Positions 22,301 to 64,000 of a DNA stretch of 64,000 nucleotides are shown here, in pieces; positions within the stretch are counted from its first letter, which is position 1; every line of letters starts with the position of its first letter. This DNA comes from Eledone cirrhosa (lineage: Eukaryota): the NCBI GenBank assembly GCA_964016885.1, contig OZ024740.1, positions 20,956,001 to 21,020,000 of the forward strand, written 5' to 3'. The position numbers and the translations under genes are program-made. The notes under the pieces are model-generated. The model was given only the letters and a program-made list of their open reading frames with translations. It searched no databases and was not told the DNA's origin.

Positions 22301-22420
22301 GGACTACATTAGAAAATATACCATTCCTTCTTTCAAGATGATATCATCAGACAGTATATCTTGGACTACATTAGACAATGTACCATTCCTTCATTTAATG
22401 GGATATTATCAGACAGTATA
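13330..22420. repeat. 50-monomer HOR (3099 bp), about 2.9 tandem copies (HOR-A)
   Basis: ORF series 13454/16552/19651, 14816/17915/21014 and 15870/18969/22068. 3099 = 50x62-1 (the caattgat deletion). The first copy is 3098 bp because of a private 1-bp deletion at ~14053. Confidence 0.95.
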
Positions 22421-38174: not shown

Positions 38175-41100
38175 GTGATATTATCAGACAGTATATCTTG
38201 GACTACATTAGACGATGTACCATTCATTCTTTCAATGTCATATTATCAGACAGTATATCTTGGACTACATTAGACAATATACCATTCCTTCTTTCAATGT
38301 GATATTATCAGTATCAGACAGTATATCTTGGACTACATTAGACAATGTACCATTCCTTCTTTCAATGTGATATTATCAGACAGTATATCTTGGACTACAT
38401 TAGACAATATACCATTCCTTCTTTCAATGTGATATTATCAGACAGTATATCTTGGACTACATTAGACAATGTACCATTTCTTCTTTCAAGGTGATATTAT
38501 CAGACAGTATATCTTGGACTACATTAGACAATGTACCATTCCTTCTTTCAATGGGATATTATCAGACAGTATATCTTGGACTACATTAGACAATATACCA
38601 TTCCTTGTTTCAATGTGATATTATCAGACAGTATATCTTGGACTACATTATACAATGTACCATTCCTTCTTTCAATGTCATATTATCAGACAGTATATCT
38701 TCGACTACATTAGACAATATAGCATTCCTTCTTTCAACGTGATATTATCAGACTTTTTTTCTTGGACTACAGTAGACAATGTACCATTCCTTCTTTCAAG
38801 GTGATATTATCAGACAGTATATCTTGGACTACAGTAGACAATGTACCATTCCTACTTTCAATATGATATTATCAGACAGTATATCTTGGACTACATTAGA
38901 CAATATACCATTCCTTCTTTCAATGTGATATTATCAGACAGTATATCTTGGACTACATTAGACAATGTACCATTCCTTCTTTCAAGGTGATATTATCAGA
39001 CAGTATATCTTGGACTACATTAGACAATATACCATTCCTTCTTTCAATGTGATATTATCAGACAGTATATCTTGGACTACATTAGACAATGTACCATTTC
39101 TTCTTTCAAGGTGATATTATCAGACAGTATATCTTGGACTACATTAGACGATGTACCATTCCTTCTTTCAAGGTGATATTATCAGACAGTATAACTTCGA
39201 CTACATTAGACAATGTACCATTCCTTCTTTCAAGGTGATATTATCAGACAGTATAACTTGGACTACATTAGACAATATACCTTTCCTTCTTTCAATGTGA
39301 TATTATCAGACAGTATATCTTGGACTACATTAGACAATGTACCATTCATTCTTTCAATGTCATATTATCAGACAGTATAACTTGGACTACATTAGACAAT
39401 ATACCATTCCTTCTTTCAATGTGATATTATCAGACAGTATATCTTGGACTACATTAGACAATGTACGATTTCTTCTTTCAAGGTGATATTATCAGACAGT
39501 ATATCTTGGACTACATTAGACGATGTACCATTCCTTCTTTCAAGGTGATATTATCAGACAGTATAACTTCGACTACATTAGACAATGTACCATTCCTTCT
39601 TTCAAGGTGATATTATCAGACAGTATATCTTGGACTACATTAGACGATATAACATTCCTTCTTTCAATGTCATATTATCAGACAGTATATCTTGGACTAC
39701 ATTAGACAATATACCATTCCTTCTTTATTATCAGACAGTATATCAGGGACTACATTAAACAATGTAACATTCCTTCTTTCAATGTGATATTATCAGACAG
39801 TATATATTGGACTGCATTAGACAATGTACCATTCCTTCTTTCAATTTGATATTATCAGACAGTATAGCTTGGACTACATTAGACAATGTACTATTCCTTC
39901 TTTCAATGTGATTTTATCTTGGACTACAGTAGACAATATACCATTTCTTCTTTCAAGGTGATATTATCAGACAGTATATCTTGGACTACATTATACAATG
40001 TACCATTCCTTCTTTCAATGTCATATTATCAGACAGTATATCTTCGACTACATTAAACAATATAGCATTCCTTCTTTCAATGTGATATTATCAGACAGTA
40101 TATCTTGGACTACAGTAGACAATGTACCATTCCCTCTTTCAAGGTGATATTATCAGAGAGTATATCTTGGACTACAGTAGACAATGTACCATTCCTACTT
40201 TCAATGTGATATCATCAGACAGTATATCCTGGACTACATTAGACAATGTACCATTCCTTCATTCAATGGGATATTATCAGACAGTATATCTTGGACTACA
40301 TTAGACAATATACCATTCCTTGTTTCAATGTGATATTATAAGACAGTATATCTTGGACTACATTAGACAATGTACCATTCCTTCTTTCAAGGTGATATTA
40401 TCAGACAGTATATCTTGGACTACATTAGACAATATACCATTCCTTGTTTCAATGTGATATTAACAGACAGCATATCTTGAACTACATTAGACAATGTACC
40501 ATTCCTTCTTTCAAGGAGATATTATCAGACAGCATATCTTCGACTACATTAGACAATGTACCATTCCTTCTTTCAATGTGATATTATCAGACAGTATATC
40601 TTGGACTACATTATACAATGTACCATTCCTTCTTTCAAGGTGATATTATCAGACAGTATATCTTGGACTACATTCGACAATGTACCATTCCTTCTTTCAA
40701 TGTCATATTATCAGACAGTATATCTTCGACTACATTAGGCAATATACCATTCCATCTTTCAATGTGATATTAACAAACAGTATATCTTGGACTACATTAG
40801 ACAATGTACCATTCCTACTTTCAACGTGATATTATCAGACAGTATATCTTGGACTACATTAGACAATGTACCATTTATTCTTTCAATGTGATATTATCAC
40901 ACAGTATATCTTGGGCTACATTAGACAATATACCAGTCCTTGTTTCAACGTGATATTATCAGACAGTATATCTTGGACTACAATAGACAATGTACCATTT
41001 CTTCTTTCAATGTGATATTATCAGACAGTATATCTTCGATTACATTAGACAATCTACCATTCCTTCTTTCAATGTGATATTATCAGACAGTATATCTTGG

Positions 41101-43240
41101 ACTACATTAGACAATGTACCATTCCTTCTTTCAATGTGATATTATCAGACAGTATATCTTGGACTACATTAGAAAATATACCATTCCTTCTTTCAAGGTG
41201 ATATTATCAGACAGTATATCTTGGAGTACATTAGACAATGTACCATTCCTTCTTTACATGGGATATTATCAGACAGTATATCTTGGACTACATTAGACAA
41301 TATACCATTCCTTGTTTCAATGTGATATTATCAGACAGTATAACTTGGACTACATTAGACAATGTACCATTCCTTCTTTCAAGGTGATATTAACAGACAG
41401 TATATCTTGGACTACATTAGACAATGGACCATTCCTAATTTCAAGGAGATATTATCAGACAGTATATCTACGACTACATTAGACAATGTACCATTCCTTC
41501 TTTCAAGGTGATATTATCAGACAGTATATCTTGGACTACATTAGACAATGTACCATTCCTTCTTTCAATGTCATATTATCAGACAGTATATCTTGGACTA
41601 TATTAGACAATGTACCATTCCTTCTTTCAAGGTGATGTTATCAGACAGTATATCTTGGACTACATTAGACAATCTACCATTCCTTCTTTCAAGGTGATAT
41701 TATCAGTCAGTATATCTTGGACTACATTAGACGATGTACCATTCCTTCTTTCAATGTCATATTATCAGACAGTATATCTTGGACTACATTAGACAATGTA
41801 CCATTGCTTCTTTCAAGGTGATATTATCAGACAGTATATCTTGGACTACATTAGACGATGTACCATTCATTCTTTCAATGTCATATTATCAGACAGTATA
41901 TCTTGGACTACATTAGACAATATACCATTCCTTCTTTCAATGTGATATTATCAGTATCAGACAGTATATCTTGGACTACATTAGACAATGTACCATTCCT
42001 TCTTTCAATGTGATATTATCAGACAGTATATCTTGGACTACATTAGACAATATACCATTCCTTCTTTCAATGTGATATTATCAGACAGTATATCTTGGAC
42101 TACATTAGACAATGTACCATTTCTTCTTTCAAGGTGATATTATCAGACAGTATATCTTGGACTACATTAGACAATGTACCATTCCTTCTTTCAATGGGAT
42201 ATTATCAGACAGTATATCTTGGACTACATTAGACAATATACCATTCCTTGTTTCAATGTGATATTATCAGACAGTATATCTTGGACTACATTATACAATG
42301 TACCATTCCTTCTTTCAATGTCATATTATCAGACAGTATATCTTCGACTACATTAGACAATATAGCATTCCTTCTTTCAACGTGATATTATCAGACTTTT
42401 TTTCTTGGACTACAGTAGACAATGTACCATTCCTTCTTTCAAGGTGATATTATCAGACAGTATATCTTGGACTACAGTAGACAATGTACCATTCCTACTT
42501 TCAATATGATATTATCAGACAGTATATCTTGGACTACATTAGACAATGTACCATTCCTTGTTTCAATGTGATATTATCAGACAGTATATCTTCGACTACA
42601 TTAGACAATATAGCATTCCTTCTTTCAATGTGATATTATCAGACAGTATATCTTCGACTACATTAGACAATATAGCATTCCTTCTTTCAATGTGATATTA
42701 TCAGACAGTATATCTTGGACCACAGTAGACAATGTACCATTCCTTCTTTCAAGGTGATATTATCAGACAGTATATCTTGGACTACAGTAGACAATGTACC
42801 ATTCCTACTTTCAATGTGATATTATCAGACAGTATATCTTGGACTACATTAGACAATGTACCATTTATTCTTTCAAGGTGATATTATCAGACAGTATATC
42901 TTGGGCTACATTAGACAATATATCAGTCCTTGTTTCAACGTGATATTATCAGACAGTATAACTTGGACTACAATAGACAATGTACCATTTCTTCTTTCAA
43001 TGTGATATCATCAGACAGTATATCTTGGACTACATTAGACAATGTACCATTCCTTCATTCAATGGGATATTATCAGACAGTATATCTTGGACTACATTAG
43101 ACAATATACCATTCCTCTTTTCATTGTGATATTATCAGACAGTATATCTTGGACTACATTAGACAATGTACCATTCCTTCTTTCAAGGTGATATTATCAG
43201 ACAGTATATCTTGGACTACATTAGACAATATACCATTCCT
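23800..43240. repeat. HOR-B family marked by +6/-9/-12 indels and a T7 patch: units of 66 (23802-27878), 68 (33766-37966) and 59 (37967-41609) monomers, plus a partial unit (41610-~43240); interrupted at ~28.1-33.7 kb by duplicated upstream sequence
   Basis: Offsets 4077 = 66x62-15, 4201 = 68x62-15 and 3643 = 59x62-15. Shared markers are tatcagtatcag (+6), tctttattatc (-9), gtgattttatcttgg (-12) and cagacttttttt. Confidence 0.92.
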
Positions 43241-46200
43241 TGTTTCAATGTGATATTAACAGACAGTATATCTTGGACTACATTAGACAATGTACCATTC
43301 CTTCTTTCAAGGAGATATTATCAGACAGTATATCTTCGACTACATTAGACAATGTACCATTCCTTCTTTCAATGTGATATTATCAGACAGTATATCTTGG
43401 TCTACATTAGACAATGTACCATTCCTTCCTTCAAGGTGATATTATCAGACAGTATATCTTGGACTACATTAGACAATGTACCATGCCTTCTTTCAATGTC
43501 ATATTATCAGACAGTATACCTTGGACTACATTAGATAATGTACCATTCCTACTTTCAATGTGATATTATCAGACAGTATATCTTGGACTACATTAGACAA
43601 TGTACCATTTATTCTTTCAATGTGATATTATCAGACAGTATATCTTGGGCTACATTAGACAATATACCAGTCCTTGTTTCAACGTGATATTATCAGACAG
43701 TATATCTTGGACTACAATAGACAAGGTACCATTCCTTCTTTCAATGTGATATCATCAGACAGTATATCATGGACTACATTAGACAATGTACCATTCCTTC
43801 TTTCAATGTGATATTATCAGACAGTATATCTTGGACTACATTAGAGAATGTACCATCCCTTCTTTCAAGGTGATATTATCAGACAGTATATCTTCGATTA
43901 CATTAGACAATGTACCATTCCTTCTTTCAATGTGATATTATCAGACAGTATATCTTGGACTACATTAAACAATATACCTTTCCTTCTTTCAATGTGATAT
44001 TATCAGACAGTATATCTTGGACTACATTAGAAAATATACCATTCCTTCTTTCAAGGTGATATTATCAGACAGTATATCTTGGACTACATTAGACAATGTA
44101 CCATTCCTTCTTTACATGGGATATTATCAGACAGTATATCTTGGATTACATTAGACAATATACCATTCCTTGTTTCAATGTGATATTATCAGACAGTATA
44201 ACTTGGACTACATTAGACAATGTACTTACTATTCCTTCTTTCAAGGTGATATTAACAGACAGTATATCTTGGACTACATTAGACAATGGACCATTCCTAA
44301 TCTCCAGGAGATATTATCAGACAGTATATCTACGACTACATTAGACAATGTACCATTCCTTCTTTCTAGGTGATATTATCAGACAGTATATCTTGGACTA
44401 CATTAGACAATGTACCATTCCTTCTTTCAAGGTGATATTATCAGACAGTATATCTTGGACTACATCAGACAATGTACCATTCCTTCTTTCAATGTCATAT
44501 TATCAGACAGTATATCTTGGACTATATTAGACAATGTACCATTCCTTCTTTCAAGGTGATGTTATCAGACAGTATATCTTGGACTACATTAGACAATGTA
44601 CCATTCCTTCTTTCAAGGTGATATTATCAGACATTATACCTTGGACTACATTAGACGATGTACCATTCGTTCTTTCAATGTCATATTATCAGACAGTATA
44701 TCTTGGACTACATTAGACAATGTACCATTGCTTCTTTCAAGGTGATATTATCAGACAGTATATCTTGGACTACATTAGACGATGTACCATTCATTCTTTC
44801 AATGTCATATTATCAGACAGTATATCTTCGACTACATTAGACAATATAGCATTCCTTCTTTCAATGTGATATTATCAGACAGTATATCTTGGACTACATT
44901 AGACAATGTACCATTCCTTCTTTCAATGTGATATTATCAGACAGTATATCTTGGACTACATTAGACAATATACCATTCCTTCTTTCAATGTGATATTATC
45001 AGACAGTATATCTTGGACTACATTAGACAATGTACCATTTCTTCTTTCAAGGTGATAGTATCAGACAGTATATCTTGGACTACATTAGACGATGTACCAT
45101 TCCTTCTTTCAAGGTGATATTATCAGACAGTATATCTTGGACTACATTAGACAATGTACCATTCCTTCTTTCAATGGGATATTATCAGACAGTATATCTT
45201 GGACTACATTAGACAATATACCATTCCTTGTTTCAATGTGATATTATCAGACAGTATATCTTGGACTACATTATACAATGTACCATTCCTTCTTTCAATG
45301 TCATATTATCAGACAGTATATCTTCGACTACATTAGACAATATAGCATTCCTTCTTTCAATGTGATATTATCAGACAGTATATCTTGGACTACTGTAGAC
45401 AATGTACCATTCCTTCTTTCAAGGTGATATTATCAGACAGTATATCTTGGACTACAGTAGACAATGTACCATTCCTACTTTCAATGTGATATTATCAGAC
45501 AGTATATCTTGGACTACATTAGACAATGTACCATTTATTCTTTCAAGGTGATATTATCAGACAGTATAACTTGGGTTACATTAGACAATATATCAGTCCT
45601 TGTTTCAACGTGATATTATCAGACAGTATAACTTGGACTACAATAGACAATGTACCATTTCTTCTTTCAATGTGATATCATCAGACAGTATATCTTGGAC
45701 TACATTAGACAATGTACCATTCCTTCATTCAATGGGATATTATCAGACAGTATATCTTGGACTACATTAGACAATATACCATTTCTTCTTTCAATGTGAT
45801 ATTATCAGACAGTATATCTTGGGCTACATTAGACAATATACCAGTCCTTCTTTCAAGGTGATATTATCAGACAGTATATCTTGGACTATATTAGACAATG
45901 TACCATGCCTTCTTTCAATGTCATATTATCAGACAGTATATCTTGGACTACATTAGACAATGTACCATTCCTACTTTCAATGTGATATTATCAGACAGTA
46001 TATCTTGTACTACATTAGACAATGTACCATTTATTCTTTCAATGTGATATTATCAGACAGTATATCTTGGGCTACATTAGACAATATACCAGTCCTTGTT
46101 TCAAAGTGATATTATCAGACAGTATATCTTGGACTACAATAGACAATGTACCATTTCTTCTTTCAATGTGATATCATCAGACAGTATATCATGGACTAAA

Positions 46201-49200
46201 TTAGACAATGTACCATTCCTTCTTTCAATGTGATATTATCAGACAGTATATCTTGGACTACATTAGAGAATGTACCATCCCTTCTTTCAAGGTGATATTA
46301 TCAGACAGTATATCTTCGATTACATTAGACAATGTACCATTCCTTCTTTCAATGTGATATTATCAGACAGTATATCTTGGACTACATTAGAAAATATACC
46401 ATTCCTTCTTTCAAGGTGATATTATCAGACAGTATATCTTGGACTACATTAGACAATGTACCATTCCTTCTTTACATGGGATATTATCAGACAGTATATC
46501 TTGGATTACATTAGACAATATACCATTCCTTGTTTCAATGTGATATTATCAGACAGTATAACTTGGACTACATTAGACAATGTACCATCCCTTCTTTCAA
46601 GGTGATATTAACAGACAGTATATCTTGGACTACATTAGACAATGGACCATTCCTAATTTCAAGGAGATATTATCAGACAGTATATCTACGACTACATTAG
46701 ACAATGTACCATTCCTTCTTTCAATGTGATATTATCAGACAGTATATCTTGGACTACATTAGACAATGTACCATTCCTTCTTTCAAGGTGATATTATCAG
46801 ACAGTATATCTTGGACTACATTAGACAATGTACCATTCCTTCTTTCAATGTCAGATTATCAGACACTATATCTTGGACTATATTAGACAATGTACCATTC
46901 CTTCTTTCAAGGTGATGTTATCAGACAGTATATCTTGGACTACATTAGACAATGTACCATTCCTTCTTTCAAGGTGATATTATCAGACAGTATATCTTGG
47001 ACTACATTAGACGATGTACCATTCATTCTTTCAATGTCATATTATCAGACAGTATATCTTGGACTACATTAGACAATATACCATTCCTTCTTTCAATGTG
47101 ATATTATCAGACAGTATATCTTGGACTACATTAGACAATGTACCATTCCTTCTTTCAATGTGATATTATCAGACAGTATATCTTGGACTACATTAGACAA
47201 TATACCATTCCTTCTTTCAATGTGATATTATCAGACAGTATATCTTGGACTACATTAGACAATGTACCATTTCTTCTTTCAAGGTGATATTATCAGACAG
47301 TATATCTTGGACTACATTAGACGATGTACCATTCCTTCTTTCAAGGTGATATTATCAGACAGTATAACTTCGACTACATTAGACAATGTACCATTCCTTC
47401 TTTCAAGGTGATATTATCAGACAGTATATCTTGGACTACATTAGACGATATAACATTCCTTCTTTCAATGTCATATTATCAGACAGTATATCTTGGACTA
47501 CATTAGACAATATACCATTCCTTCTTTATTATTAGACAGTATATCAGGTACTACATTAAACAATGTAACATTCCTTCTTTCAATGTGATATTATCAGACA
47601 GTATATCTTGGACTGCATTAGACAATGTACCATTCCTTCTTTCAATTTGATATTATCAGACAGTATAGCCTGGACTACATTAGACAATGTACCATTCCTT
47701 CTTTCAATGTGATTTTATCTTGGACTACAGTAGACAATATACCATTCTTTGTTTCAATGTCATATTATCAGACAGTATATCTTGGACTACATTCGACAAT
47801 GTACCATTTCTTCTTTCAATGTGATATTATCAGACAGTATATCTTGGACAACATTAGAAAATATACCATTCCTTATTTCAAGATGATATCATCAGACAGT
47901 ATATCTTGGACTACATTATACAATGTACCATTCCTTCTTTCAATGTCATATTATAAGACAGTATATCCTCGACTACATTAGACAATATAGCATTCCTTCT
48001 TTCAATGTGATATTATCAGACAGTATATCTTGGACTACAGTAGACAATGTACCATTCCTTCTTTCAAGGTGATATTATCAGACAGTATATCTTGGACTAC
48101 AGTAGACAATGTACCATTCCTACTTTCAATGTGATATTATCAGACAGTATATCTTGGACTACATTAGACAATGTACCATTCCTTCTTTCAAGGTGATATT
48201 ATCAGACAGTATATCTTCGATTACATTAGACAATATACCATTCCTTGTTTCAATGTGATATTATCAGACAGTATATCTTGGACTACATTAGACAATGTAC
48301 CATTCCTTCCTTCAAGGTGATATTAACAAACAGTATATCTTGGACCTTTCCTAACTTCAAGGAGATATTATCAGACAGTATATCTACGACTACATAAGAC
48401 AATGTACCATTCCTTCTTTCAACGTGATATTATCAGACAGTATATCTTGGACTACATTAGACAATGTACCATTCCTTCATTCAAGGTGATATTATCAGAC
48501 AGTATATCTTGGACTGCATTAGATAATGTACCATTCCTTCTTTCAATGTCATATTATCAGACAGTATATCTTGGACTAAATTAGACACTGTACCATTCCT
48601 TCTTTCAAGGTGATGTTATCAGACAGTATATCTTGGACTACATTAGACAATGTACCATTTATTCTTTCAATATGATATTATCAGACAGTATATCTTGGGC
48701 CACATTAGACAATATACCAGTCCTTGTTTCAACGTGATATTATCAGACAGTATATATTGGACTACATTAGACAATGTACCATTGCTTCTTTCAAGGTGAT
48801 ATTATCAGACAGTATATCTTGGACTACATTAGACAATGTACCATTCCTGCTTTCAATGTGATATTATCAGACAGTATATCTTGGACTACATTAGAGAATG
48901 TACCATTCCTTCTTTCAAGGTGATATTATCAGACAGTATATCTTCGATTAAATTAGACAATCTACCATTCCTTCTTTCAATGTGATATTATCAGACAGTA
49001 TATCTTGGACTACATTAGACAATGTATCGTTCCTTCTTTCAATGTGATATTATCAGACATCATATCTTGGACTGCATTAGACAATGTACCATTCCTTCTT
49101 TCAAGGTGATATTATCAGACAGTATATCTTGGACTACATTAGACTATGTACCATTCATTCTTTCAAGGTGATATTATCACACAGTTTATCTTGGACTACA

Positions 49201-52200
49201 TTAGACAATATACCATTCCTTGTTTCAAGTGATATTATCAGACAGTATATATTGGACTACATTAGACAATGCACCATTTCTTCTTTCAATGTGATATTAT
49301 CAGACAGTATATCTTGGACTACATTAGACAATATACCATTTCTTGTTTCAATGTCATATTATCAGACAGTATATCTTGGACTACATTAGACAATGTACCA
49401 TTTCTTTTTTCAACGTGATATTATCAGACAGTATAGCTTGGACTACATTAGAAAATATACCATTCCTTCTTTCAAGGTGATATTATCAGATAGTATATCT
49501 TGGACTACATTAGACAATATACCATTCCTTCTTTCAATGGGATATTATCAGACAGTATATCCTGGACTACATTGGACAATGTACCATTCCTTCTTTCAAT
49601 GTGATATTATCAGACAGTATATCTTGGACTACATTAGAGAATGTACCATTCCTTCTTTCAAGGTGATATTATCAGACAGTATATCTTCGACGACATTAGA
49701 CAATGTACCATTCCTTCTTTCAATGTGATATTATCAGACAGTATATCTTGGACTACATTAGACAATATACCTTTCCTTCTTTCAACGTGATCTTATCAGA
49801 CAATATATCTTGGACTACATTAGACAATGTACCATTCCTTCTTTCAAGGTGATATTATCAGACAGTATATCTTGGACTACATTAGACAATGTACCATTCA
49901 TTTTTTCAAGGTCATATTATCAGACAGTATATCTTCGACTACATTAGCCAATATACCATTCCTTCCTTCAATGTGATATTATCAGACAGTATATCTTGGA
50001 CTACATTAGACAATGTACCATTCCTTCTTTCAAGGTGATATTATCAGACAGTATATCTTGGACTACATTAGACAATGTACCATTCCTTCTTTCAATGTGA
50101 TATTATCTGACAGTATATCTTGGACTACATTAGACAAGGTACCATTCCTTCTTTCAATGTGATATTATCAAACAGTATATCTTGGACTACATTAGACAAT
50201 GTATCGTTCCTTCTTTCAATGTGATATTATCAGACATTATATCTTTGACTAATTTAGACATGTACCATTCCTTATTTCAAGGTGATATTATCAGACAGTA
50301 TATCTTGGACTACATTAGACAATGTACCATTCATTCTTTCAAGGTGATATTATCAGACAGTATATCTTGGACTACGTTAGACAATGTACCATTCCTTCTT
50401 TCAATATGTTATCATCAGCCAGTATATCTTGGACTACATTAGAAAATGTACCATTCCTTCTTTCTAGGTGATATTATCAGACAGTTTATCTTGGACTACA
50501 TTACACAATGTACCGTTCCTTCTTTCAATGTGATATTTTCAGGCAGTATACCTTGGACTACATTAGACAATGTACCATTCATTCCTTCAAGGTGATATTA
50601 TCAGTCAGTATATCTTGGACTACATTAGACAATGTATCGTTCCTTCTCTCAATGTGATATTATCAGACAGTATATCTTGGACTACATTAGACAATGTACC
50701 ATTCCTTCTTTCAAGGTGATATTATAAGAGAGTATATCCTGGACTACATTAGACAATGTACCATTCCTTCTTTCAATGTGATATTATCAGACAGTATATC
50801 TTGGACTACATTAGACAATGTACCATTCCTTCTTTCAACGTGATATTATCAGACAGTATATCTTGGACTACATTAGACAATGTACCATTCCTTCTTTCAA
50901 GGTGATATTATTAGACAGTATATCTTGGACTACATTAGACAATCTACCATTCATTTTTTCAAGGTGATATTATCAGACAGTATATCTTGGACTACATTAG
51001 ACAATGTACCATTCCTTCTTTCAAGGTGATATTATCAGACAGTATATCTTGGACTACATTAGACAATGTACCATTCCTTCTTTCAATGTCATATTATCAG
51101 ACAGTATATCTTCGACTACATTAGACAATATAGCATTCCTTCTTTCAATGTGATATTATCAGACAGTATATCTTGGACTACAGTAGACAATATACCATTC
51201 CTTCTTTCAAGGTGATATTATCAGACAGTATATCTTGGACTACACTAGACAATGTACCATTCCTTCTTTCAACGTGATATTATCAGACAGTATATCTTGG
51301 ACTACATTAGACAATGTACCATTCCTTCTTTCAAGGTGATATTATTAGACAGTATATCTTGGACTACATTAGACAATGTACCATTCCTTCTTTCAATGTG
51401 ATATTATCAGACAGTATATCTTGGACTACATTAGACACTATACCATTCCTTGTTTCAATGTGATATTATCAGACAGTATATCTTGGACTACATTAGACAA
51501 TGTACCATTCCTTCTTTCAAGGTGATATTATCAGACAGTATATCTTGGACTACATTAGACAATGTACCATTCCTTCTTTCAAGGTGATATTATCAGACAG
51601 TATATCTTGGACTACATTAGACAATGTACCATTCCTTCTTTCAAGGTGATATTATCAGACAGTATATCTTGGACTACATTAGACAATGTACCATTCCTTC
51701 TTTCAATGGGATATTATCAGAGAGTATATCTTGGACTACATTAGACAATATACCATTCCTTCTTTCAATGTGATATTATCAGACAGTATATCTTGGACTA
51801 CATTAGACAATGTACCATTCCTTCTTTCAAGGTGATATTATCAGACAGTATATGTTGGACTACATTAGACAATGTACCATTCCTTCTTTCAATGTGATAT
51901 TATCAGACAGTGTATCTTGGACTACATTAGACAATCTAGCATTCCTTCTTTCAATGTGATATTATCAGACAGTATATCTTGGACTACATTAGTCAATGTA
52001 CCATTCCTTCTTTCAATGTTATATTATCAGACAGTATAGATTGGACTACATTAGACAATGTACCATTCCTTCTTTCAAGGTTATATTATCAGACAGTATA
52101 TATTGGGCTACATTAGACAATATACCAGTCCTTGTTTCAATGTGATATTATCAGACAGTATATCTTGGACTACATTATAAAATATACCCTTCCTTCTTTC

Positions 52201-54190
52201 AAGGTGATATTATCTGACAGTATATCTTGGGCTACATTAAACAATGTACCATTTCTTCTTTCAATGTGATATTATCAGACAGTATATCTTGGACTACATT
52301 AGACAATGTACCATTTCTTCTTTCAATGTGATATTATCAGACAGTATAACTTAGACTACATTAGACAATACACCATTCTTTCTTTCAATGTGATATGATC
52401 AGACAGTATATCCTGGACTACATTAGACAATGTACCATTCCTTGTTCAACGTGATATTATTAGACAGTATACCTTGGACTACATTAGACAATGTACCATT
52501 CCTTCTCTCATTGTGATATTATCAGACAGTATATGTGATATTATCAGACAGTATATCTTGGACTACATTAGACAATATACCATTCCTTGTTTCAATGTGA
52601 TATTATCAGACAGTATATCTTGGACTACATTAGACAATGTACCATTTCTTCTTTCAATGTGATATTATCAGACAGTATATCTTGCACTACATTAGACAAT
52701 ATACCGTTCCTTTTTTCAATGTGACATTATCAGACTGTATATCTTGGACTACATTAGACAATGTACCATGTATTCTTTCAATTTGATATTATCAGACAGT
52801 ATATCTTGGACTACATTAGACAATATACCCTTCCTTGTTTCAATGTGATATTATCAGACAGTATATCTTGGACTACATTAGACAATGTACCATTCCTTGT
52901 TCAACGTGATATTATTAGACAGTATACCTTGGACTACATTAGACAATGTACCATTCCTTCTTTCAATGTGATATTATCAGACAGTATATGTGATATTATC
53001 AGACAGTATATCTTGGACTACATTAGACAATATACCATTACTTGTTTCAATGTGATATTATCAGACAGTATATCTTGGACTACATTAGACGATGTACCAT
53101 TTCTTCTTTCAATGTGATATTATCAGACAGTATATCTTGCACAAAAATAGACAATATACCGTTCCTTTTTTCAATGTGATATTATCAGACAGTATATCTT
53201 GGACTACATTAGACAATGTACCATGTATTCTTTCAATGTGATATTATCAGACAGTATATCTTGGACTACATTCGACAATGTACCATTCATTCTTTCAATG
53301 TGATATTATCAGACAGTATATCTTGGACTACGTTAGACAATATACCATTACTTCTTTCAATGTGATAGTATCAGACAGTATATCTTGGACTACGTTAGAC
53401 AATGTACCATTCCTTCTTTCAAGGTGATATTATCAGACAGTATATGTTGGACTACATTAGACAATGTACCATTCCTTCTTTCAATGTGATATTATCAGAC
53501 AGTATATCTTGGACTACATTAGTCAATGTACCATTCCTTCTTTCAATGTTATATTATCAGACAGTATAGCTTGGACTACATTAGACAATGTACCATTCCT
53601 TCTTTCAAGGTGATATTATCAGACAGTATATCTTGGACTACATTAGACAATGTACCATTTCTTCTTTCAATGTGATATTATCAGACAGTATATCTTGGAC
53701 TACATTAGACAATACAACACTCCTTGTTTCAAAGTGATATTATCAGACAGTATATCTTGGACTACATTAGACAATGTACCATTCCTTGTTTCAACGTGAT
53801 ATTATTAGACAGTATACCTTGGACTTCATTAGACAATGTACCATTCCTTCTTTCAATGTGATATTATCAGACAGTATATGTGATAGTATCAGACAGTATA
53901 TCTTGGACTACATTAGACAATATACCATTCCTTGTTTCAATGTGATATTATCAGACAGTATATCTTGGACTACATTAGAGAACGTAACATTTATTCTTTC
54001 AATGTGATATTATCAGACAGTATATATTGGGCTACATTAGACAATATACCCGTCCTTGTTTCAATGTGATATTATCAGACAGTATATCTTGGACTACATT
54101 ATACAATATACCATTCCTTCCTCCAAGGTGATATTATATGACAGTATATCTTGGGCTACATGAAACAATGTACCATTTCTTCTTTCAATG

Positions 54191-57100
54191 TGATATTATC
54201 AGACAGTATATCTTGGACTACATTAGACAATGTACCATTTCTTCTTTCAATGTGATATTATCAGACAGTATAACTTGGACTACATTAGACAATGTACCAT
54301 TCCTTGTTTCAACGTGATATTATTAGACAGTATACCTTGGACTTCATTAGACAATGTACCATTCCTTCTTTCAATGTGATATTATCAGACAGTATATGTG
54401 ATGGTATCAGACAGTATATCTTGGACTACATTAGACAATATACCATTCCTTGTTTCAATGTGATATTATCAGACAGTATATCTTGGACTACATTAGACAA
54501 TGTACCATTTATTCTTTCAATGTGATATTATCAGACAGTATATCTTGGACTACATTAGACAATATACCGTTCCTTTTTTCAATGTGATATTATCAGACAG
54601 TATATCTTGGACTACATTAGTCAATGTACCATGTATTCATTCAATGTGATATTATCAGACAGTATATCGTGGACTACATTAGACAATATACCATTCCTTG
54701 TTTCAATGTGATATTATCAGACAGTAGATCTTGGACTACATTAGACAATGTACCGTTTCTTCTTTCAATGTGATATTATCAGACAGTATATCTTGGACTA
54801 CATTAGCCAATATACCATTCCTTGTTTCAATGTGATATTATCAGACAGTATATCTTGGACCACATTAGACAATGTACCATTCCTTCTTTCAAGGTGATAT
54901 TATCAGACAGTATATCTTGGACTACATTAGACAATGTACCATTCCTTCTTTCAAGGTGATATTATCAGACAGTATATCTTGGACTACATTAGACAATGTA
55001 CCGTTCCTTCTTTCAAGGTGATATTATCAGACAGTATATCTTGGTCTACATTAGACAATGTACCATTCCTTCTTTCAAGGTGATATTATCAGACAGTATA
55101 TCTTGGACAACATTAGACAATGTACCATTCCTTCTTTCAATGTCATATTATCCGACAGTATATCTTCGACTACATTAGACAATATACCATTCCTTGTTTC
55201 AATGTGATATTATCAGACAGTATATCTTGGACTACATTAGACAATGCACCATTCCTTCTTTCAAGGTGATATTATCAGACCGTATATCTTGGACTACAAT
55301 AGACAATGTACCATTCCTACTTTCAATGTGATATTAACAGACAGTATATATTGGACTACATTAGACAATGTACCATTCCTTCTTTCAACGTCATATTATC
55401 AGACAGTATATCTTAGACTACATTAGACAATATACCATTCCTTCTTTCAATGTGATATTATCAGACAGTATATCTTGGACTACATTATACAATACCATTC
55501 CTTCTTTCAACGTGATATTCTCAGACAGTATATCTTGGACTACATTATACAATACCATTCCTTCTTTCAACGTGATATTCTCAGACAGTATATCTTGGAC
55601 TGCATTAGACAATGCACCATTCCTTCTCTCAATGTGATATTATCAGACAGTATATCTTGGACTACATTAGACAATGTACCATTCCTTCTTTCACTGTGAT
55701 ATTATCAGACAGTATATCTTGGACTACATTAGACAATGTACCTTTCCTTCTTTGAATGTTATATTATCAGACAGTATATCTTGGACTACATTAGACAATG
55801 TACCATTCCTTCTTTCAATGGGATATTAGCAGACAGTATATCTTGGACTACATTAGACAATATACCATTCCTTCTTTCAAAATGATATTATCAGACAGTA
55901 TATCTTGGACTACATTAGACAATGTACCATTTCTTCTTTCAATGTGATATTATCAGACAGTATAACTTGGACTACATTAGACAATGTACCATTCCTTGTT
56001 TCAACGTGATATTATTAGACAGTATACCTTGGACTTCATTAGACAATGTACCATTCCTTCTTTCAATGTGATATTATCAGACAGTATATGTGATGGTATC
56101 AGACAGTATATCTTGGACTACATTAGACAATATACCATTCCTTGTTTCAATGTGATATTATCAGACAGTATATCTTGGACTACATTAGACAATGTACCAT
56201 TTATTCTTTCAATGTGATATTATCAGACAGTATATCTTGGACTACATTAGACAATATACCGTTCCTTTTTTCAATGTGATATTATCAGACAGTATATCTT
56301 GGACTACATTAGTCAATGTACCATGTATTCATTCAATGTGATATTATCAGACAGTATATCGTGGACTACATTAGACAATATACCATTCCTTGTTTCAATG
56401 TGATATTATCAGACAGTAGATCTTGGACTACATTAGACAATGTACCGTTTCTTCTTTCAATGTGATATTATCAGACAGTATATCTTGGACTACATTAGCC
56501 AATATACCATTCCTTGTTTCAATGTGATATTATCAGACAGTATATCTTGGACCACATTAGACAATGTACCATTCCTTCTTTCAAGGTGATATTATCAGAC
56601 AGTATATCTTGGACTACATTAGACAATGTACCATTCCTTCTTTCAAGGTGATATTATCAGACAGTATATCTTGGACTACATTAGACAATGTACCGTTCCT
56701 TCTTTCAAGGTGATATTATCAGACAGTATATCTTGGTCTACATTAGACAATGTACCATTCCTTCTTTCAAGGTGATATTATCAGACAGTATATCTTGGAC
56801 AACATTAGACAATGTACCATTCCTTCTTTCAATGTCATATTATCCGACAGTATATCTTCGACTACATTAGACAATATACCATTCCTTGTTTCAATGTGAT
56901 ATTATCAGACAGTATATCTTGGACTACATTAGACAATGCACCATTCCTTCTTTCAAGGTGATATTATCAGACCGTATATCTTGGACTACAATAGACAATG
57001 TACCATTCCTACTTTCAATGTGATATTAACAGACAGTATATATTGGACTACATTAGACAATGTACCATTCCTTCTTTCAACGTCATATTATCAGACAGTA

Positions 57101-57620
57101 TATCTTAGACTACATTAGACAATATACCATTCCTTCTTTCAATGTGATATTATCAGACAGTATATCTTGGACTACATTATACAATACCATTCCTTCTTTC
57201 AACGTGATATTCTCAGACAGTATATCTTGGACTACATTATACAATACCATTCCTTCTTTCAACGTGATATTCTCAGACAGTATATCTTGGACTACATTAG
57301 ACAATGCACCATTCCTTCTCTCAATTGGATATTATCAGACAGTATATCTTGGACTACATTAGACAATGTACCATTCCTTCTTTCACTGTGATATTATCAG
57401 ACAGTATATCTTGGACTACATTAGACAATGTACCTTTCCTTCTTTGAATGTTATATTATCAGACAGTATATCTTGGACTACATTAGACAATGTACCATTC
57501 CTTCTTTCAATGGGATATTAGCAGACAGTATATCTTGGACTACATTAGACAATATACCATTCCTTCTTTCAAAATGATATTATCAGACAGTATATCTTGG
57601 ACTACATTAGACAATGTACC
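54191..57620. repeat. 27-monomer (1692 bp) tandem duplication
   Basis: ORF offsets 54292->55984, 54996->56688, 55244->56936 and 55368->57060. 1692 = 27x62+22-2-2 (one 84-bp monomer and two 60-bp monomers). Confidence 0.93.
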
Positions 57621-59218
57621 ATTCCTTCTTTCGATGGGTTATTATCAGACAGTATAACTTGGACTACATTAGACAATGTACCATTCCTTCTTTCAAGGTT
57701 ATTTTATCAGACAGTATATCTTGGACTACATTAGACAACGTATCGTTCCTTCTTTCAAGATGATATTATCAGACAGTATATCTTGGACTACATTAGACAA
57801 TGTACCATTCCTTCTATCAAGGTGATATTATCGGACAGTATATCTTGGGCTACATTAGACAATGTACCATTCCTTCTTTCAATGTGATATTATCAGACAG
57901 TATATGTGATGGTATCAGACAGTATATCTTGGACTACATTAGACAATATACCATTCCTTGTTTCAATGTGATATTATCAGACAGTATATCTTGGACTACA
58001 TTAGACAATGTACCATTTATTCTTTCAATGTGATATTATCAGACAGTATATCTTGGACTACATTAGACAATATACCATTCCTTCTTTCAATGTGATATTA
58101 TCAGACAGTATATCTTGGACTACATTAGACAATATACCATTCCTTCTTTCAATGTGATATTATCAGACAGTATATCTTGGACTACATTAGACAATGTATC
58201 GTTCCTTCATTCACTGTGATATTATCAGACAGTATATCTTGGACTACATTAGACAATGTACCATTCCTTCTTTCAACCTCATATTATCAGACAGTATATC
58301 TTGGACTACATCAGACAATGTACCATTCCTAATTTCAATGTGATATTATCAGACAGTATAGCTCGGACTACATTAGACAATGTACCATTCCTTCTTTCAA
58401 TGTGATATTATCAGACAGTATATCTTGGACTACATTAAACAATATACCATTCCTTGTTTCAATGTGATATGATTAGACAGTATACCTTGGACTACATTAG
58501 ACAATGTACCATTCCTTGTTTCAATGGGATATTATCAGACAGTATAGCTTGGACTATATTAGACAATGTACCATTCCTTCTTTCAATGTGATATTATCAG
58601 ACAGTATATCTTGGACTACATTAAACAATATACCATTCCTTGTTTCAATGTGATATGATTAGACAGTATACCTTGGACTACATTAGACAATGTACCATTC
58701 CTTGTTTCAACGTCATATTATCAGACAGTATATCTTGGACTACATTAGACAATATACCTACCTTGTTTCAATGTGATATTATCAGACAGTATATCTTGGA
58801 CTCCATTAGACAATGTACCATTCCTACTTTCAATGTGATATTATCAGACAGTATAGCTCGGACTACATTAGACAGTGTACCATTCATTCTTTCAATGTGA
58901 TATTATCAGACGGTATATCTTGGACTACAATAGACAATATACCTTCCTTGTTTCAATGTGATATTATCAGACAGTATATCTTGGACTTCATTAGACACTG
59001 TATCGTTCCTTCTTTCAAGATGATATTATCAGACAGTATATCTTGGACTACATTAGACAATGTACCATTCCTTCTTTCAATGTGATATTATCGGACAGTA
59101 TATCTTGGACTACATTAGATAATGTACCATTCCTTCTTTCAATGTGATATTATCAGAGTATATCTTGGACTACATTAGACAATGTACCATTCCTTCTGTC
59201 AATGTGATATTATCAGAC

Positions 59219-59305
59219 TGTCTAATGTAGTCCAAGATATACTGTCTGATAATATCACATTGAAAGAAGGAATGGTACATTGTCTAATGTAGTCCAAGAT
59301 ATACT
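59219..59305 (-). other. 87-bp inverted segment of the satellite (1.4 monomers in reverse orientation)
   Basis: The sequence tgtctaatgtagtccaagatatactgtctgataatatcacattgaaagaaggaatggtacattgtctaatgtagtccaagatatact is the exact reverse complement of consensus agtatatc...ttagaca. Flipping it restores tatcagac|agtatatc and ttagaca|atgtacc. Confidence 0.97.
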
Positions 59306-60924
59306 ATGTACCATTCCTTCTTTCAATGTCATATTATCAGACAGTATATCTTGGACTACATTAGACAATGTACCATTCCTCATTTCAAGGTGATATTACA
59401 AACAGTATATCGTGGACTACATTAGACAATGTATCGTTCCTTCTTTCAATGTGATATTATCAGACAGTATATCTTGGACTACATTAGACAATGTACCATT
59501 CCTTCTTTCAATGTGATATTATCAGACAGTATATCTTGGACTACATTAGACAATGTACCATTCCTTCTTTCAAGGTGATATTATCAGACAGTATATCTTG
59601 GACTACATTAGACAATGTACCATTTCTTCCTTCAAGGTGATATTACCAGACAGTATATCCTGGACTAAATTAGACAATGTACCATTCCTTCTTTCAATGT
59701 CATATTATCAGACAGTATATCTTGGACTACATTAGACAATGTACCATTCCTTCTTTCAAGGTGATATTATCAGACAGTATATCTTGGACTACATTAGACA
59801 ATGTACCATTCCTTCTTTCAATGTTATATTATCAGACAGTATAGCTTGGACTATATTAGACAATGTACCATTCCTTCTTTCAATGTGATATTATCAGACA
59901 GTATATCTTGGAATACATTAAACAATATACTATTCTTGTTTCAATGTGATATGATTAGACATTATACCTTGGACTACATTAGACAATGTACCATTCCTTG
60001 TTTCAATGGGATATTATCAGACAGTATATCTTGGACTACATTAGATAATATACCATTCCTTGTTTCAATGTGATATTATCAGACAGTATATCTTGGACTA
60101 CATTAGACAATGTACCATTCCTTCTTTCAAGGTGATATTATCAGACAGTATATTTTGGACTACATTAGACAATGTACCATTCATTCTTTCAAGGTGATAT
60201 TATCAGACGGTATATCTTGGACTACATTAGACAATGTACCATTCCTTCTTTCAAGGTGATATTATCAGACAGTATATCTTGGTCTACATTAGACAATGTA
60301 CCATTCCTTCTTTCAATGTGATATTATCAGACAGTATATCTTGGACTACATTAGACAATGTACCATTCCTTCCTTCAAGGTGATATTATCAGACAGTATA
60401 CCTTGGACTACATTAGACAATGTAACATTCCTTCTTTCAAGGTGATATTATCAGACAGTATATCTTGGACTACATTAGACAATGTACCATTCCTTCTTTC
60501 AATGTGATATTATCAGACAGTATATCTTGGACTACATTAGACAATCTAGCATTCCTTCTTTCAATGTGATATTAGCAGACAGTATATCTTGGACTACATT
60601 ATTCAATGTACCATTCCTTCTTTCAATGTTATATTATCAGACAGTATAGCTTGGACTACGTTAGACAATGTACCATTCCTTCTTTCAAGGTGATATTATC
60701 AGACAGTATATCTTGGACTACATTAGACAATGTACCATTCCTTCTTTCAATGTCATATGATCCGACAGTACATCTTCGACTACATTAGACAATATACCAT
60801 TCCTTGTTTCAATGTGATATTATCAGACAGTATATCTTGGACTACATTAGACAATGTACCATTCCTTCTTTCAAGGTGATATTATCAGACAGTTTATCTT
60901 GGACTACATTAGACAATGTACCAT

Positions 60925-62690
60925 TCCTTCTTTCAATGTGATATTATCAGACAGTATATCTTGAACTACATTAGATGATGTACCATTCCTTCTTTCAATC
61001 TGATATTATCAGACAGTATATCTTGGAGTACATTAGACAATGTACCATTCCTTCTTTCAATGTGATATTATCAGACAGTATAACTTGGACTGCATTAGAC
61101 AATGTACCATTCCTTCTTTCAATGTGATATTATCAGACAGTATATCTTGGACTACATTAGACAATGTACCATTCCGTCTTTCAATGTGATATTATCAGAC
61201 AGTATATCTTGGACTACATTAGACAATATACCATTACTTCTTTCAATGTGATATTATCTGACAGTATATCTTGGACTACATTAGACAATGTACCATTCCT
61301 TCTTTCAAGGTGATATTATCAGACAGTATATCTTGGACTACATTAGACAATGTACCATTCCTTCCTTCAAGGTGATATTATCAGACAGTATATCTTGGAC
61401 TACATTAGACAATGTACCATTTCTTCCTTCAAGGTGATATTATCAGACAGTATATCTTGGACTAAATTAGACAATGTACCATTCCTTCTTTCAATGTCAT
61501 ATTATCAGACAGTATATCTTGGACTACATTAGACAATGTACCATTCCTTCCTTCAAGGTGATATTATCAGACAGTATATCTTGGACTACATTAGACAATG
61601 TACCATTCCTTCTTTCAATGTTATATTATCAGACAGTATATCTTCGACTACATTAGACAATATACCATTCCTTCTTTCAATGTGATATTATCAGACAGTA
61701 TATCTTGGACTACATTAGACAATGTACCATTCTTTCTTTCAAGTTGATATTATCAGACAGTATATCTTGGACTACAATAGACAATGTACCATTCCTACTT
61801 TCAATGTGATATTATCAGACAGTATATCTTGAACTACATTAGATGATGTACCATTCCTTCTTTCAATCTGATATTATCAGACAGTATATCTTGGACTACA
61901 TTAGACAATGTACCATTCCTTCTTTCAATGTGATATTATCAGACAGTATATCTTGGACTACATTAGACAATGTACCATTCCTTCTTTCAATGTGATATTA
62001 TCAGACAGTATATCTTGGACTACATTAGACAATGTACCATTCCGTCTTTCAATGTGATATTATCAGACAGTATATCTTGGACTACATTAGACAATATACC
62101 ATTACTTCTTTCAATGTGATATTATCAGACAGTATATCTTGGACTACATTTGACAATGTACCATTCCTTCTTTCAAGGTGATATTATCAGACAGTATATC
62201 TTGGACTACATTAGACAATGTACCATTCCTTCTTTCAAGGTGATATTATCAGACAGTATATCTTGGACTACATTAGACAATGTACCATTTCTTCCTTCAA
62301 GGTGATATTATCAGACAATATATCTTGGACTAAATTAGACAATGTACCATTCCTTCTTTCAATGTCATATTATCAGACAGTATATCTTGGACTACATTAG
62401 ACAATGTACCATTCCTTCCTTCAAGGTGATATTATCAGACAGTATATATTGGACTACATTAGACAATATACCCTTCCTTCTTTCAATGTTATATTATCAG
62501 ACAGTATATCTTCGACTACATTAGACAATATACCATTCCTTCTTTCAATGTGATATTATCAGACAGTATATCTTGGACTGCATTAGACAATGTACCATTC
62601 TTTCTTTCAAGGTGATATTATCAGACAGTATATCTTGGGCTACAATAGACAATGTACCATTCCTACTTTCAATGTGATATTATCAGACAG
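60925..62690. repeat. 14-monomer (868 bp) tandem duplication, moderately diverged
   Basis: ORF offsets 61350->62218 and 61474->62342. Shared markers are gaactacattagatgatg...caatctgat (60963/61831), attccgtctt, ccattacttc and actaaattag. Confidence 0.85.
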
Positions 62691-63107
62691 TATATCTTGG
62701 ACTACATTAGACAATGTACCATTCCTTCCTTCAAGGTGATATTATCAGACAGTATATCTTGGACTACATTAGACAATGTACCATTCCTTCTTTCAATGTG
62801 ATATTATCAGACAGTATATCTTGGACTACATTATACAATGTACCATTCCTTCTTTCAATGTTATATTATCAGACTGTATATCTTGGACTACATTAGACAA
62901 TATACCATTCCTTCTTTCAATGTGATATTATCAGACAGTATATCTTGGACTACATTAGACAATGTATCGTTCCTTCTTTCAATGTGATATTATCAGACAG
63001 AATACCTTGGACTATATTAGACAATATACCATTCCTTCTTTCAATGTGATATTATCAGACAGTATATCTTGGACTACATTAGACAATGTACCATTCCTTC
63101 TTTCAAG

Positions 63108-64000
63108 GTGATATTATCAGACAGTATATCTTGGACTACATTAGACAATGTACCATTTATTCTTTCAATGTGATATTATCAGACAGTATATCTTGGACTA
63201 CATTAGACAATATACCGTTCCTTTTTTCAATGTGATATTATCAGACAGTATATCTTGGACTACATTAGTCAATGTACCATGTATTCATTCAATGTGATAT
63301 TATCAGACAGTATATCGTGGACTACATTAGACAATATACCATTCCTTGTTTCAATGTGATATTATCAGACAGTAGATCTTGGACTACATTAGACAATGTA
63401 CCGTTTCTTCTTTCAATGTGATATTATCAGACAGTATATCTTGGACTACATTAGCCAATATACCATTCCTTGTTTCAATGTGATATTATCAGACAGTATA
63501 TCTTGGACCACATTAGACAATGTACCATTCCTTCTTTCAAGGTGATATTATCAGACAGTATATCTTGGACTACATTAGACAATGTACCATTCCTTCTTTC
63601 AAGGTGATATTATCAGACAGTATATCTTGGACTACATTAGACAATGTACCGTTCCTTCTTTCAAGGTGATATTATCAGACAGTATATCTTGGTCTACATT
63701 AGACAATGTACCATTCCTTCTTTCAAGGTGATATTATCAGACAGTATATCTTGGACAACATTAGACAATGTACCATTCCTTCTTTCAATGTCATATTATC
63801 CGACAGTATATCTTCGACTACATTAGACAATATACCATTCCTTGTTTCAATGTGATATTATCAGACAGTATATCTTGGACTACATTAGACAATGCACCAT
63901 TCCTTCTTTCAAGGTGATATTATCAGACCGTATATCTTGGACTACAATAGACAATGTACCATTCCTACTTTCAATGTGATATTAACAGACAGTATATATT
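63108..64000. repeat. Third, non-adjacent partial copy of the 1692-bp unit (offset 6956 from the second copy), truncated by the window end
   Basis: ORF 63644 is identical to ORFs 54996 and 56688. The rare variants occur in the same order (ataccgttcctttttt, catgtattcattc, atatcgtgg, agtagatct, ttagccaata, ggaccacatt, tatccgacag, cagaccgtat). Confidence 0.92.

What the first reader, a model, noticed from the sequence alone, without database searches (positions are those of the whole stretch)
59219..59305. Single blunt, in-register 87-bp micro-inversion in an otherwise unidirectional 64-kb satellite
Seen: this is the only reverse-strand stretch I found among about 1,030 monomers. Reverse-complementing 59219-59305 restores the consensus at both junctions (tatcagac|agtatatc and ttagaca|atgtacc) with no base gained or lost. 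There is no junction microhomology, so the breakpoints are unambiguous, and the inverted part matches the consensus perfectly although its neighbours carry SNPs. Phase check: 58813->59553 = 740 = 12x62-4, fully explained by three separate small deletions, so the inversion is length-neutral. Inference: unequal crossover and slippage, which explain the rest of the array, cannot produce this. It needs two precise breaks with blunt rejoining or a double template switch. Both breaks fall at the AGAC(A) motif, which occurs twice per monomer.
Basis: partly seen in the sequence, partly recalled or inferred. Interest (0 to 1): 0.8.

Follow-up and report, generated by a model that had tools for sequence, protein, structure and literature searches.

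The report
One old satellite flip, copied 121-fold
The 87-base back-to-front piece is real but not unique: 121 copies with the same junctions fill the right three quarters of this 353-kb repeat array, likely all inherited from one cut-and-flip event that ordinary array duplication then spread, so it is a useful ancestry marker rather than a new mechanism.

Summary
Confirmed: window 59219-59305 is a blunt, length-neutral 87-bp inversion, the only reverse stretch among about 1,030 62-bp monomers in the window, with unambiguous breakpoints. It is not single. The window is the left part of one 353-kb array (5,673 monomers) that holds 121 inverted units (119 full, 2 shortened), all in its right 270 kb; the window copy is the leftmost and has an exact twin 6,956 bp away. 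All 119 share both breakpoints, and two flanking SNPs tie them to one founder. Read-derived contigs of two runs, possibly the assembly's own sample, carry the left junction at depths 365 and 493, so a chimeric read is excluded. Exact reciprocity without microhomology favours two breaks rejoined flipped (about 0.6) over a double template switch (about 0.3). The spread looks passive: copy number, span, haplotype decay and duplication ends match ordinary SNP markers. The AGAC-motif idea rests on one event. Known kind of event; its value is as a lineage tracer of array growth. Interest 0.27.

The parts
1..64000 (+). 62-bp satellite, left-central part of a single 353-kb array (G000:C1:20,932,175-21,284,998; window = 20,956,001-21,020,000)
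59219..59305 (-). 87-bp inverted piece (one monomer plus 25 bp, so it has 25-bp direct repeats at its ends); ancestral core type; leftmost of 121 copies
59218..59219 (.). left junction, blunt, no microhomology; 23-mer found 52 times genome-wide, all + strand, all in this array; the other copies differ by SNPs 3-4 bp inside the core or in the flank
   Evidence: read-derived contig
59305..59306 (.). right junction, blunt, no microhomology; 23-mer found 90 times genome-wide, all + strand, all in this array
59198..59198 (+). founder SNP (G, 21 bp left of the junction): 89 of 119 copies, against 10 of 5,223 other monomers
59330..59330 (+). founder SNP (C, 25 bp right of the junction): 114 of 119 copies, against 279 of 5,223 other monomers
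56152..63014 (+). 6,863-bp block containing the inversion, repeated without a difference 6,956 bp downstream (twin inversion at G000:C1:21,022,175)
47500..64000 (+). transition zone between the array's two compartments: monomer pairs here are mostly found in neither the left (inversion-free) nor the right (inversion-bearing) compartment; richest in indels; left edge approximate
59095..59305 (.). predicted single-strand hairpin of the inverted piece with the forward monomers to its left (about 87-bp arms, 37-nt spacer); a predicted fold only
   Evidence: -95.5 kcal/mol for the 335-mer against -25.0 +- 3.1 for 20 forward-only 335-mers

Best explanation
This is one of 121 copies of the same blunt inversion in a single 62-bp satellite array, which likely arose once, when two double-strand breaks released a piece of the array that was rejoined back to front without loss or gain, and was then likely carried along passively as the surrounding stretch was duplicated into the right-hand 270 kb of the array. 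Shown: exact reciprocal junctions, identical breakpoints in 119 of 119 full copies, shared founder SNPs, confinement to one array compartment, spacing mostly in multiples of 62. Inferred: single germline origin (about 0.95); end joining of two breaks rather than a polymerase switch (about 0.6); amplification by the same unequal exchange or break-induced copying that shapes the rest of the array (about 0.9). The released piece measured 25+62n bp; 87 may be the original size or what was left after a longer inverted tract shrank by whole monomers, since going below 87 needs only-25-bp homology (seen once, in 1 of 121). The window copy is likely a relic of the oldest lineage, left at the edge while younger sub-variants expanded inside.
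For: Reciprocity: left flank, piece and right flank join at exactly complementary phases; two independent switches in a 62-periodic template would do so about 1 time in 62x62 (arithmetic; the adjacency argument is that of PMC5829575, passages read). No inverted homology to guide a switch: exact microhomology 0; best nearby inverted repeat 3 nt, reached by 87% of random phase pairs. One origin: same breakpoints in 119 of 119; G at -21 in 89 of 119 vs 10 of 5,223; C at +25 in 114 of 119 vs 279 of 5,223; no other reverse run in the array apart from 2 derivatives that keep parts of the same core. Descent with modification: 16 core haplotypes; ancestral type (53 copies) at both ends, a derived SNP (47+19 copies) within 21.027-21.243 Mb, a second derived SNP (19) within 21.108-21.163 Mb. 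Passive spread: 13 unlinked right-compartment SNP alleles have 37-292 copies over 229-269 kb and similar decay of flanking identity; duplication ends within 2 monomers of an inversion are 0.97 of expectation, 18 control markers 0.59-1.19; left and right compartments share 0-2% of monomer pairs outside the boundary bins, and the inversions lie only in the right one and the transition zone. 81.5% of spacings are multiples of 62, median 1,860 bp.
Against: One founding event cannot prove its mechanism. Pure in-place inversions are the commonest short template-switch class in human-chimp comparisons (type 1-3-2-4, 45% of 794 events) and need no marked prior similarity (PMC5453318, passages read). 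No un-inverted parent haplotype was found: the 10 other monomers with the G SNP sit in different contexts, so original length and context are unverified. The layering is interleaved, not a clean mirror. Read support is for the left junction only, from one sample that may be the assembly's source, with 30 letters on the shorter side (one short of the tool's 31-letter rule), and the third run of that sample did not list it.
Confidence: 0.57

Rival explanations
1. Same single origin and passive amplification, but the founding event was a double inter-strand template switch at a replication fork (type 1-3-2-4): the polymerase jumped to the opposite strand, copied 87 bases backwards and returned in register.
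For: Known and common class that creates no repeat and needs little prior similarity (PMC5453318, passages). The ends of the piece pair imperfectly (5 of 10 inside) and the right break lies in a 6-bp-stem hairpin of the monomer, which could stall a fork.
Against: No terminal homology at either switch (0 nt); imperfect pairing is at chance level (11.6% of phase pairs do as well). Nothing forces both return points to be exact in a periodic template. All 59 pure human-chimp microinversions in PMC8755829 (parts 1-2 of 5 read) have flanking inverted repeats; here only 3 nt at chance level.
Confidence: 0.28
2. A sequence-preferring nuclease or recombinase cut at the same register of the AGACA motif in both places with a 1-nt stagger, and the flipped piece was ligated across one mismatched pair at each junction.
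For: The breaks share a 5-nt direct motif within one base of register, as 78 of 3,658 phase pairs (2.1%) do; a 1-nt stagger resolved in favour of the piece at both ends would give exactly the observed junctions (inference from the sequence).
Against: One event, pattern noticed after the fact; with more than 11,000 such motifs in the array no second independent inversion exists and none of about 10 other indels breaks at these positions (by eye); no enzyme candidate was found or sought.
Confidence: 0.07
3. The inversion promoted its own spread: each copy can fold back on neighbouring monomers into a long hairpin that stalls forks or breaks, raising local duplication, so the right compartment grew because of it.
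For: Predicted hairpin of -95.5 kcal/mol against -25; the inversion range coincides with the larger compartment, 76% of the array; 3 of 121 copies are secondarily rearranged.
Against: No excess of duplication ends near inversions (0.97; controls 0.59-1.19; 138 unique contexts); flanking identity decays as around SNP markers; the inversion-free compartment is as recently duplicated (exact 300-mers duplicated 0.39-0.94 per 20-kb bin vs 0.52-0.96, last bin 0.07); core SNPs are not mirrored in adjacent monomers.
Confidence: 0.06
4. Library or assembly artefact (chimeric read, or a read error multiplied by the assembler).
For: Satellite arrays are error-prone in assemblies (general knowledge); the supporting runs may be the assembly's own sample; no second individual shows the junction (0 of 6 reads in X11; 8 reads in X10 not resolvable).
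Against: 121 copies in 41 distinct 211-bp contexts with nested SNP lineages; left-junction contig at depth 365 and 493, about 6 and 8 per assembly copy given a mean 31-mer count of 64; the RAD runs have almost no power (6-8 reads on the array, about 1 inversion per 36 monomers).
Confidence: 0.02

Closest known systems
Pure in-place microinversion (type 1-3-2-4 of the four-point model, PMC5453318; human-chimp microinversions, PMC8755829)
   Same: A segment replaced by its exact reverse complement, no gain or loss, no repeat created at the junctions.
   Different: Longer than the 17-33 nt cases of PMC8755829, lacks their flanking inverted repeats, lies inside a tandem array (original size known only modulo 62) and has been amplified about 120-fold.
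Strand switches in satellite arrays: human beta satellite and HSat3 (over 200 inversion breakpoints, 10.1101/2021.07.12.452052; numbers scale with array length, 10.64898/2026.07.22.740206), Hieracium HintCl-18 block-type arrays (PMC11566620), Tribolium macro-dyad symmetries with conserved inversion sites (PMC13081366)
   Same: Many orientation changes inside one satellite array; in Tribolium the same inversion junction recurs, in Hieracium forward and reverse blocks are repeated as a unit.
   Different: Here the inverted tract is 1.4 monomers, junctions are perfectly blunt and reciprocal, and all copies trace to one founder by flanking SNPs; the passages read describe kilobase sub-arrays or degenerate junctions and do not trace them so.
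Intra-array layered expansion (10.1101/2021.07.12.452052)
   Same: New variants expand inside an array and older types remain towards both sides; right compartment slightly less divergent (about 2.0 vs 2.5 differences per monomer).
   Different: Small single-locus array with no evidence of centromere function; layers interleave.
Inverted re-insertion of double-cut fragments at meiotic hotspots (10.1101/2020.06.23.168138)
   Same: Closely spaced breaks, short fragment (16-709 bp) rejoined in opposite orientation by end joining in the germline.
   Different: Those events come with deletions and about 5 bp inverted microhomology at one end; this one has neither. No evidence ties it to SPO11.

Membership tests
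Pure in-place inversion (1-3-2-4) | Segment equals reverse complement of the ancestral segment with switch points in order 1-3-2-4 and no repeat created | tested here: met
   flip restores the majority sequence, unique best breakpoints, no gain or loss modulo 62; ancestor inferred from the majority monomer, no parent allele found
Pure in-place inversion (1-3-2-4) | Made by polymerase template switching | not testable with these tools
   The model itself is agnostic on cause; sequence alone gives only the reciprocity and homology arguments
Inverted-repeat-flanked microinversions (PMC8755829) | Flanking inverted repeat of 3 nt or more with inner edges within -5 to +4 nt, beyond chance | tested here: not met
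   best is 3 nt, not adjacent, reached by 87% of 3,844 phase pairs; exact microhomology 0
Amplified strand switch in a satellite array | Same inversion junction recurring along the array | tested here: met
   119 of 119 full copies share both breakpoints
Amplified strand switch in a satellite array | Common descent of the copies rather than recurrence | tested here: met
   founder SNPs and nested core variants
Tribolium-type macro-dyad symmetry | Inverted sub-arrays of kilobases forming array-level palindromes | tested here: not met
   no reverse run longer than about 91 bp in the 353-kb array
Intra-array layered expansion | Younger variants central, older types on both sides | tested here: inconclusive
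   ranges are nested and the ancestral core is at both ends, but types interleave and younger alleles have smaller ranges under any local-spread model
Centromeric satellite | CENP-A occupancy; presence on many chromosomes | not testable with these tools
   No chromatin data; the 25-mer tested occurs only in this one array (3,034 + 116 genome-wide, all recovered inside it); diverged arrays elsewhere not excluded
Hairpin-driven fragile site | Excess rearrangement ends next to the inverted repeat | tested here: not met
   0.97 of expectation; flanking decay like controls

The most novel reading that the evidence does not exclude
The 87-bp piece is the stable end state of a once larger inversion: inside a tandem array an inverted tract shrinks by whole monomers until too little internal homology is left (here 25 bp), so satellite inversions of any size collapse to 1-2 monomers and then ride array expansion as units shielded from exchange with forward monomers. 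Its core (15 alleles in 118 copies, pi 0.016) is less variable than its flanks (0.037, 0.032) and than the 87 bp around each of 13 control SNPs (0.019-0.055), so such cores would be built-in point-mutation clocks that separate mutation from conversion and date satellite growth in any assembled genome.
Probability: 0.25. Interest if true: 0.5.

Novelty: new member of a known kind. Interest (0 to 1): 0.27.

Why it matters
Modestly. Pure microinversions and repeated strand switches in satellites are both described. What this case adds is a clean pedigree: one homoplasy-proof mark, traced through 121 descendants, shows that about three quarters of a 353-kb array was built after the event from a founder stretch of roughly 36 monomers, that sub-variants spread locally and nested, and that about 120 long predicted hairpins were tolerated without visible effect on duplication ends. 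The two junctions are cheap population markers for array turnover, and the inverted core may serve as a conversion-free clock. It also warns that a 'unique' event in a 64-kb window of satellite can be the edge copy of a large family.

Tried and rejected
Lone or artefactual event: rejected. Further independent inversions: none; all 121 reverse runs in the array belong to this family, and 2 short runs outside the array look like chance. Un-inverted parent: searched through the G SNP, none among 10 other carriers. Homology-guided switch: no exact or above-chance imperfect inverted homology. AGAC hot spot: not supported by other indels; about 5 of 20 indel ends fall in the 10 phases around the first motif, near the 3 expected. 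Hairpin-templated conversion: 15 core alleles are only marginally biased towards common array alleles (p = 0.053) and are not mirrored in adjacent monomers (the complex copy at 21,277,771 was left out). Hairpin drive: rejected as above; the apparent depletion (0.11 vs 0.21 within 1 monomer) comes from a null that treats paired ends as independent and is not claimed. Other samples: of 12 runs listed 8 were laid (X1, X4-X8, X10, X11); X1, X7, X8 (three other organism labels) hold the majority monomer with no difference at depth 6-14 and show no junction, X11 shows none in 6 reads, X10 is unresolved; these are absences without power. Rfam found nothing in the two 10-kb stretches holding the array ends. 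Earlier findings: none for this genome. Literature searches returned no listing that describes a single-origin, 1.4-monomer inversion amplified through an array; the library lacks most subscription papers and no supplements were opened, so this is weak. No tree was built, because the flanks recombine; no date is given, for lack of a mutation rate.

Full report
Observation. The window is pure 62-bp satellite (period 62, 1031.8 copies). A k-mer scan finds one reverse-strand stretch, 59219-59305. Of 289 breakpoint pairs tried, this pair alone leaves 2 mismatches to the majority monomer over 207 bp after flipping; the flipped piece is a perfect match, and the flanks end and resume at exactly the phases the piece covers. 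Exact inverted microhomology is 0.

Beyond the window. The window lies at G000:C1:20,956,001-21,020,000 of a 3.0-Gb assembly. The left junction 23-mer occurs 52 times and the right one 90 times, all on the + strand between 21.015 and 21.285 Mb, with 0 for the reversed controls. I fetched 450 kb of contiguous neighbouring sequence and 15 probes further left. The array runs from 20,932,175 to 21,284,998 (5,673 monomers). A monomer 25-mer counted 3,034 forward and 116 reverse genome-wide, and the same numbers were recovered inside this array, so by that word the family is one locus and all its reverse copies are here. There are 121 reverse runs in the array: 119 full 87-bp copies, one 25-bp core and one copy trimmed at both ends. 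None lies in the left 83 kb; the window copy is the first, its twin lies 6,956 bp on within a 6,863-bp identical block, and the last lies about 200 bp from the array end. Median spacing is 1,860 bp, 81.5% of spacings are multiples of 62, one inversion per 36 monomers.

One origin. All 119 full copies have the same two breakpoints; junction 12-mers differ only by point changes. A G 21 bp left of the junction is in 89 of 119 copies and 10 of 5,223 other monomers; a C 25 bp right is in 114 of 119 and 279 of 5,223. The cores fall into 16 haplotypes, 1.3% from the founder on average. The ancestral type (53 copies) holds both ends, a derived SNP (66 copies) lies within 21.027-21.243 Mb, and a further SNP on it (19) within 21.108-21.163 Mb, with interleaving. 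Monomer-pair sharing splits the array into a left compartment without inversions and a right one with them; the window copy sits in the transition zone whose monomers belong mostly to neither. I infer it is a relic of the oldest lineage.

Is it in reads? Contigs from runs X4 and X5 include an 80-bp record matching 59169-59248 with no difference at depths 365 and 493; the mean assembly count of its 31-mers is 64, about 6 and 8 per copy. Limits: one sample, perhaps the assembly's source; 30 letters on the shorter side, one under the tool's bridging rule; X6 of the same sample did not list it; the right junction is not among the 24 of 355 pieces shown. Other individuals (X10, 8 reads; X11, 6 reads) and three other organism labels (X1, X7, X8, which hold the perfect monomer at low depth) show no junction, without power. 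The nested SNP lineages are the stronger argument against artefact.

How it arose. The junctions are exactly reciprocal. Two independent switches in a 62-periodic template would be so about once in 3,844; two breaks and a flip are so by construction, the adjacency argument of PMC5829575 (passages). There is no homology to steer a switch: 0 nt exact, imperfect pairing at the 12% level, best nearby inverted repeat 3 nt, matched by 87% of phase pairs, whereas all 59 pure human-chimp microinversions of PMC8755829 (parts 1-2 of 5 read) have flanking inverted repeats. Against this, in-place inversions are 45% of short template-switch events in PMC5453318 and need little prior similarity (passages), and the right break is in a small hairpin of the monomer. 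Germline double cuts with inverted re-insertion are documented in mouse, though with deletion and microhomology (10.1101/2020.06.23.168138, passages). I put end joining at about 0.6 and a double switch at about 0.3. The AGAC idea: 2.1% of phase pairs share as long a direct motif, and a 1-nt staggered cut would fit, but it is one event, with no recurrence and no support from about 10 other indels. The founder length is known only as 25+62n, n at least 1; the 25-bp derivative shows that the tract can lose a monomer, no longer core exists here, and no parent allele survives.

How it spread. Each copy is predicted to fold back on its neighbours (-95.5 vs -25.0 +- 3.1 kcal/mol, n = 20), so I tested whether it drives duplication. 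It does not show: 13 unlinked SNP alleles of the right compartment have 37-292 copies over 229-269 kb and similar flank decay (a 14th is the linked G); ends of duplicated blocks (138 unique contexts from 500 ends) are 0.97 of expectation within 2 monomers of an inversion, 18 controls 0.59-1.19; the inversion-free compartment is as recently duplicated. Core alleles are not mirrored in adjacent monomers and only marginally resemble common alleles (p = 0.053). The core is less variable than its flanks and than windows around all 13 control SNPs (pi 0.016 vs 0.019-0.055), as expected if inversion shields it from exchange, though controls may be older or recurrent.

Comparison. Many strand switches per array are known in human beta satellite and HSat3 (10.1101/2021.07.12.452052, passages; 10.64898/2026.07.22.740206, passages), Hieracium (PMC11566620, passages) and Tribolium, with conserved inversion sites (PMC13081366, passages); layered expansion is described in the first of these. 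PMC7954356 (passages) added nothing; PMC3081327, PMC13532658, PMC12019632 and PMC12887540 were seen as listings only. Eight searches listed no paper tracing one short blunt inversion through an array, which is weak evidence given the library; no supplements were read.

Verdict. Real, precisely as described locally, but the edge copy of a 121-member family: a known kind of mutation amplified by ordinary array dynamics. Interest 0.27; the collapse-and-clock reading (probability 0.25) would merit 0.5.

Noticed in passing
G000:C1:20,932,175-21,284,998 (window is inside): The whole satellite family, by one exact 25-mer, is this one 353-kb array at 21 Mb of a 443-Mb contig; both ends are abrupt joins to non-satellite DNA.
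   Followed up: yes
window about 47,500-64,000 and on to G000:C1:21,025,700: Two compartments of the array share almost no monomer pairs; the transition zone between them has its own, indel-rich monomers, including seven 84-bp units from one 22-bp duplication.
   Followed up: partly
G000:C1:21,238,929: One copy has lost exactly 62 bp from inside the inversion, leaving a 25-bp inverted core; it carries the derived core SNP and both founder SNPs, so it comes from an 87-bp copy.
   Followed up: yes
G000:C1:21,274,946-21,275,905 and 21,277,771: A cluster of deletions (33, 45, 8 bp) near the right end, with one inversion copy trimmed at both junctions at 2-3 bp microhomologies, and another copy with an 11-bp replaced patch that resembles pieces of its own flanks.
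   Followed up: partly
runs X1, X7, X8: Three other organism labels hold the majority monomer without a single difference as one 92-bp contig at depth 6-14: a short conserved array in relatives, or cross-sample carry-over.
   Followed up: no
L053, about 500 bp left of the array start: Two diverged direct copies about 240 bp apart of a dispersed-repeat-like sequence (seen in the printout); no Rfam match; not identified.
   Followed up: no
all copies, 21 bp left of the junction: The founder G is replaced by the majority base in 23 and by a common array variant in 7 of 119 copies, while the right founder SNP is kept in 114: exchanges occurred within 21 bp of the left junction more than once.
   Followed up: partly
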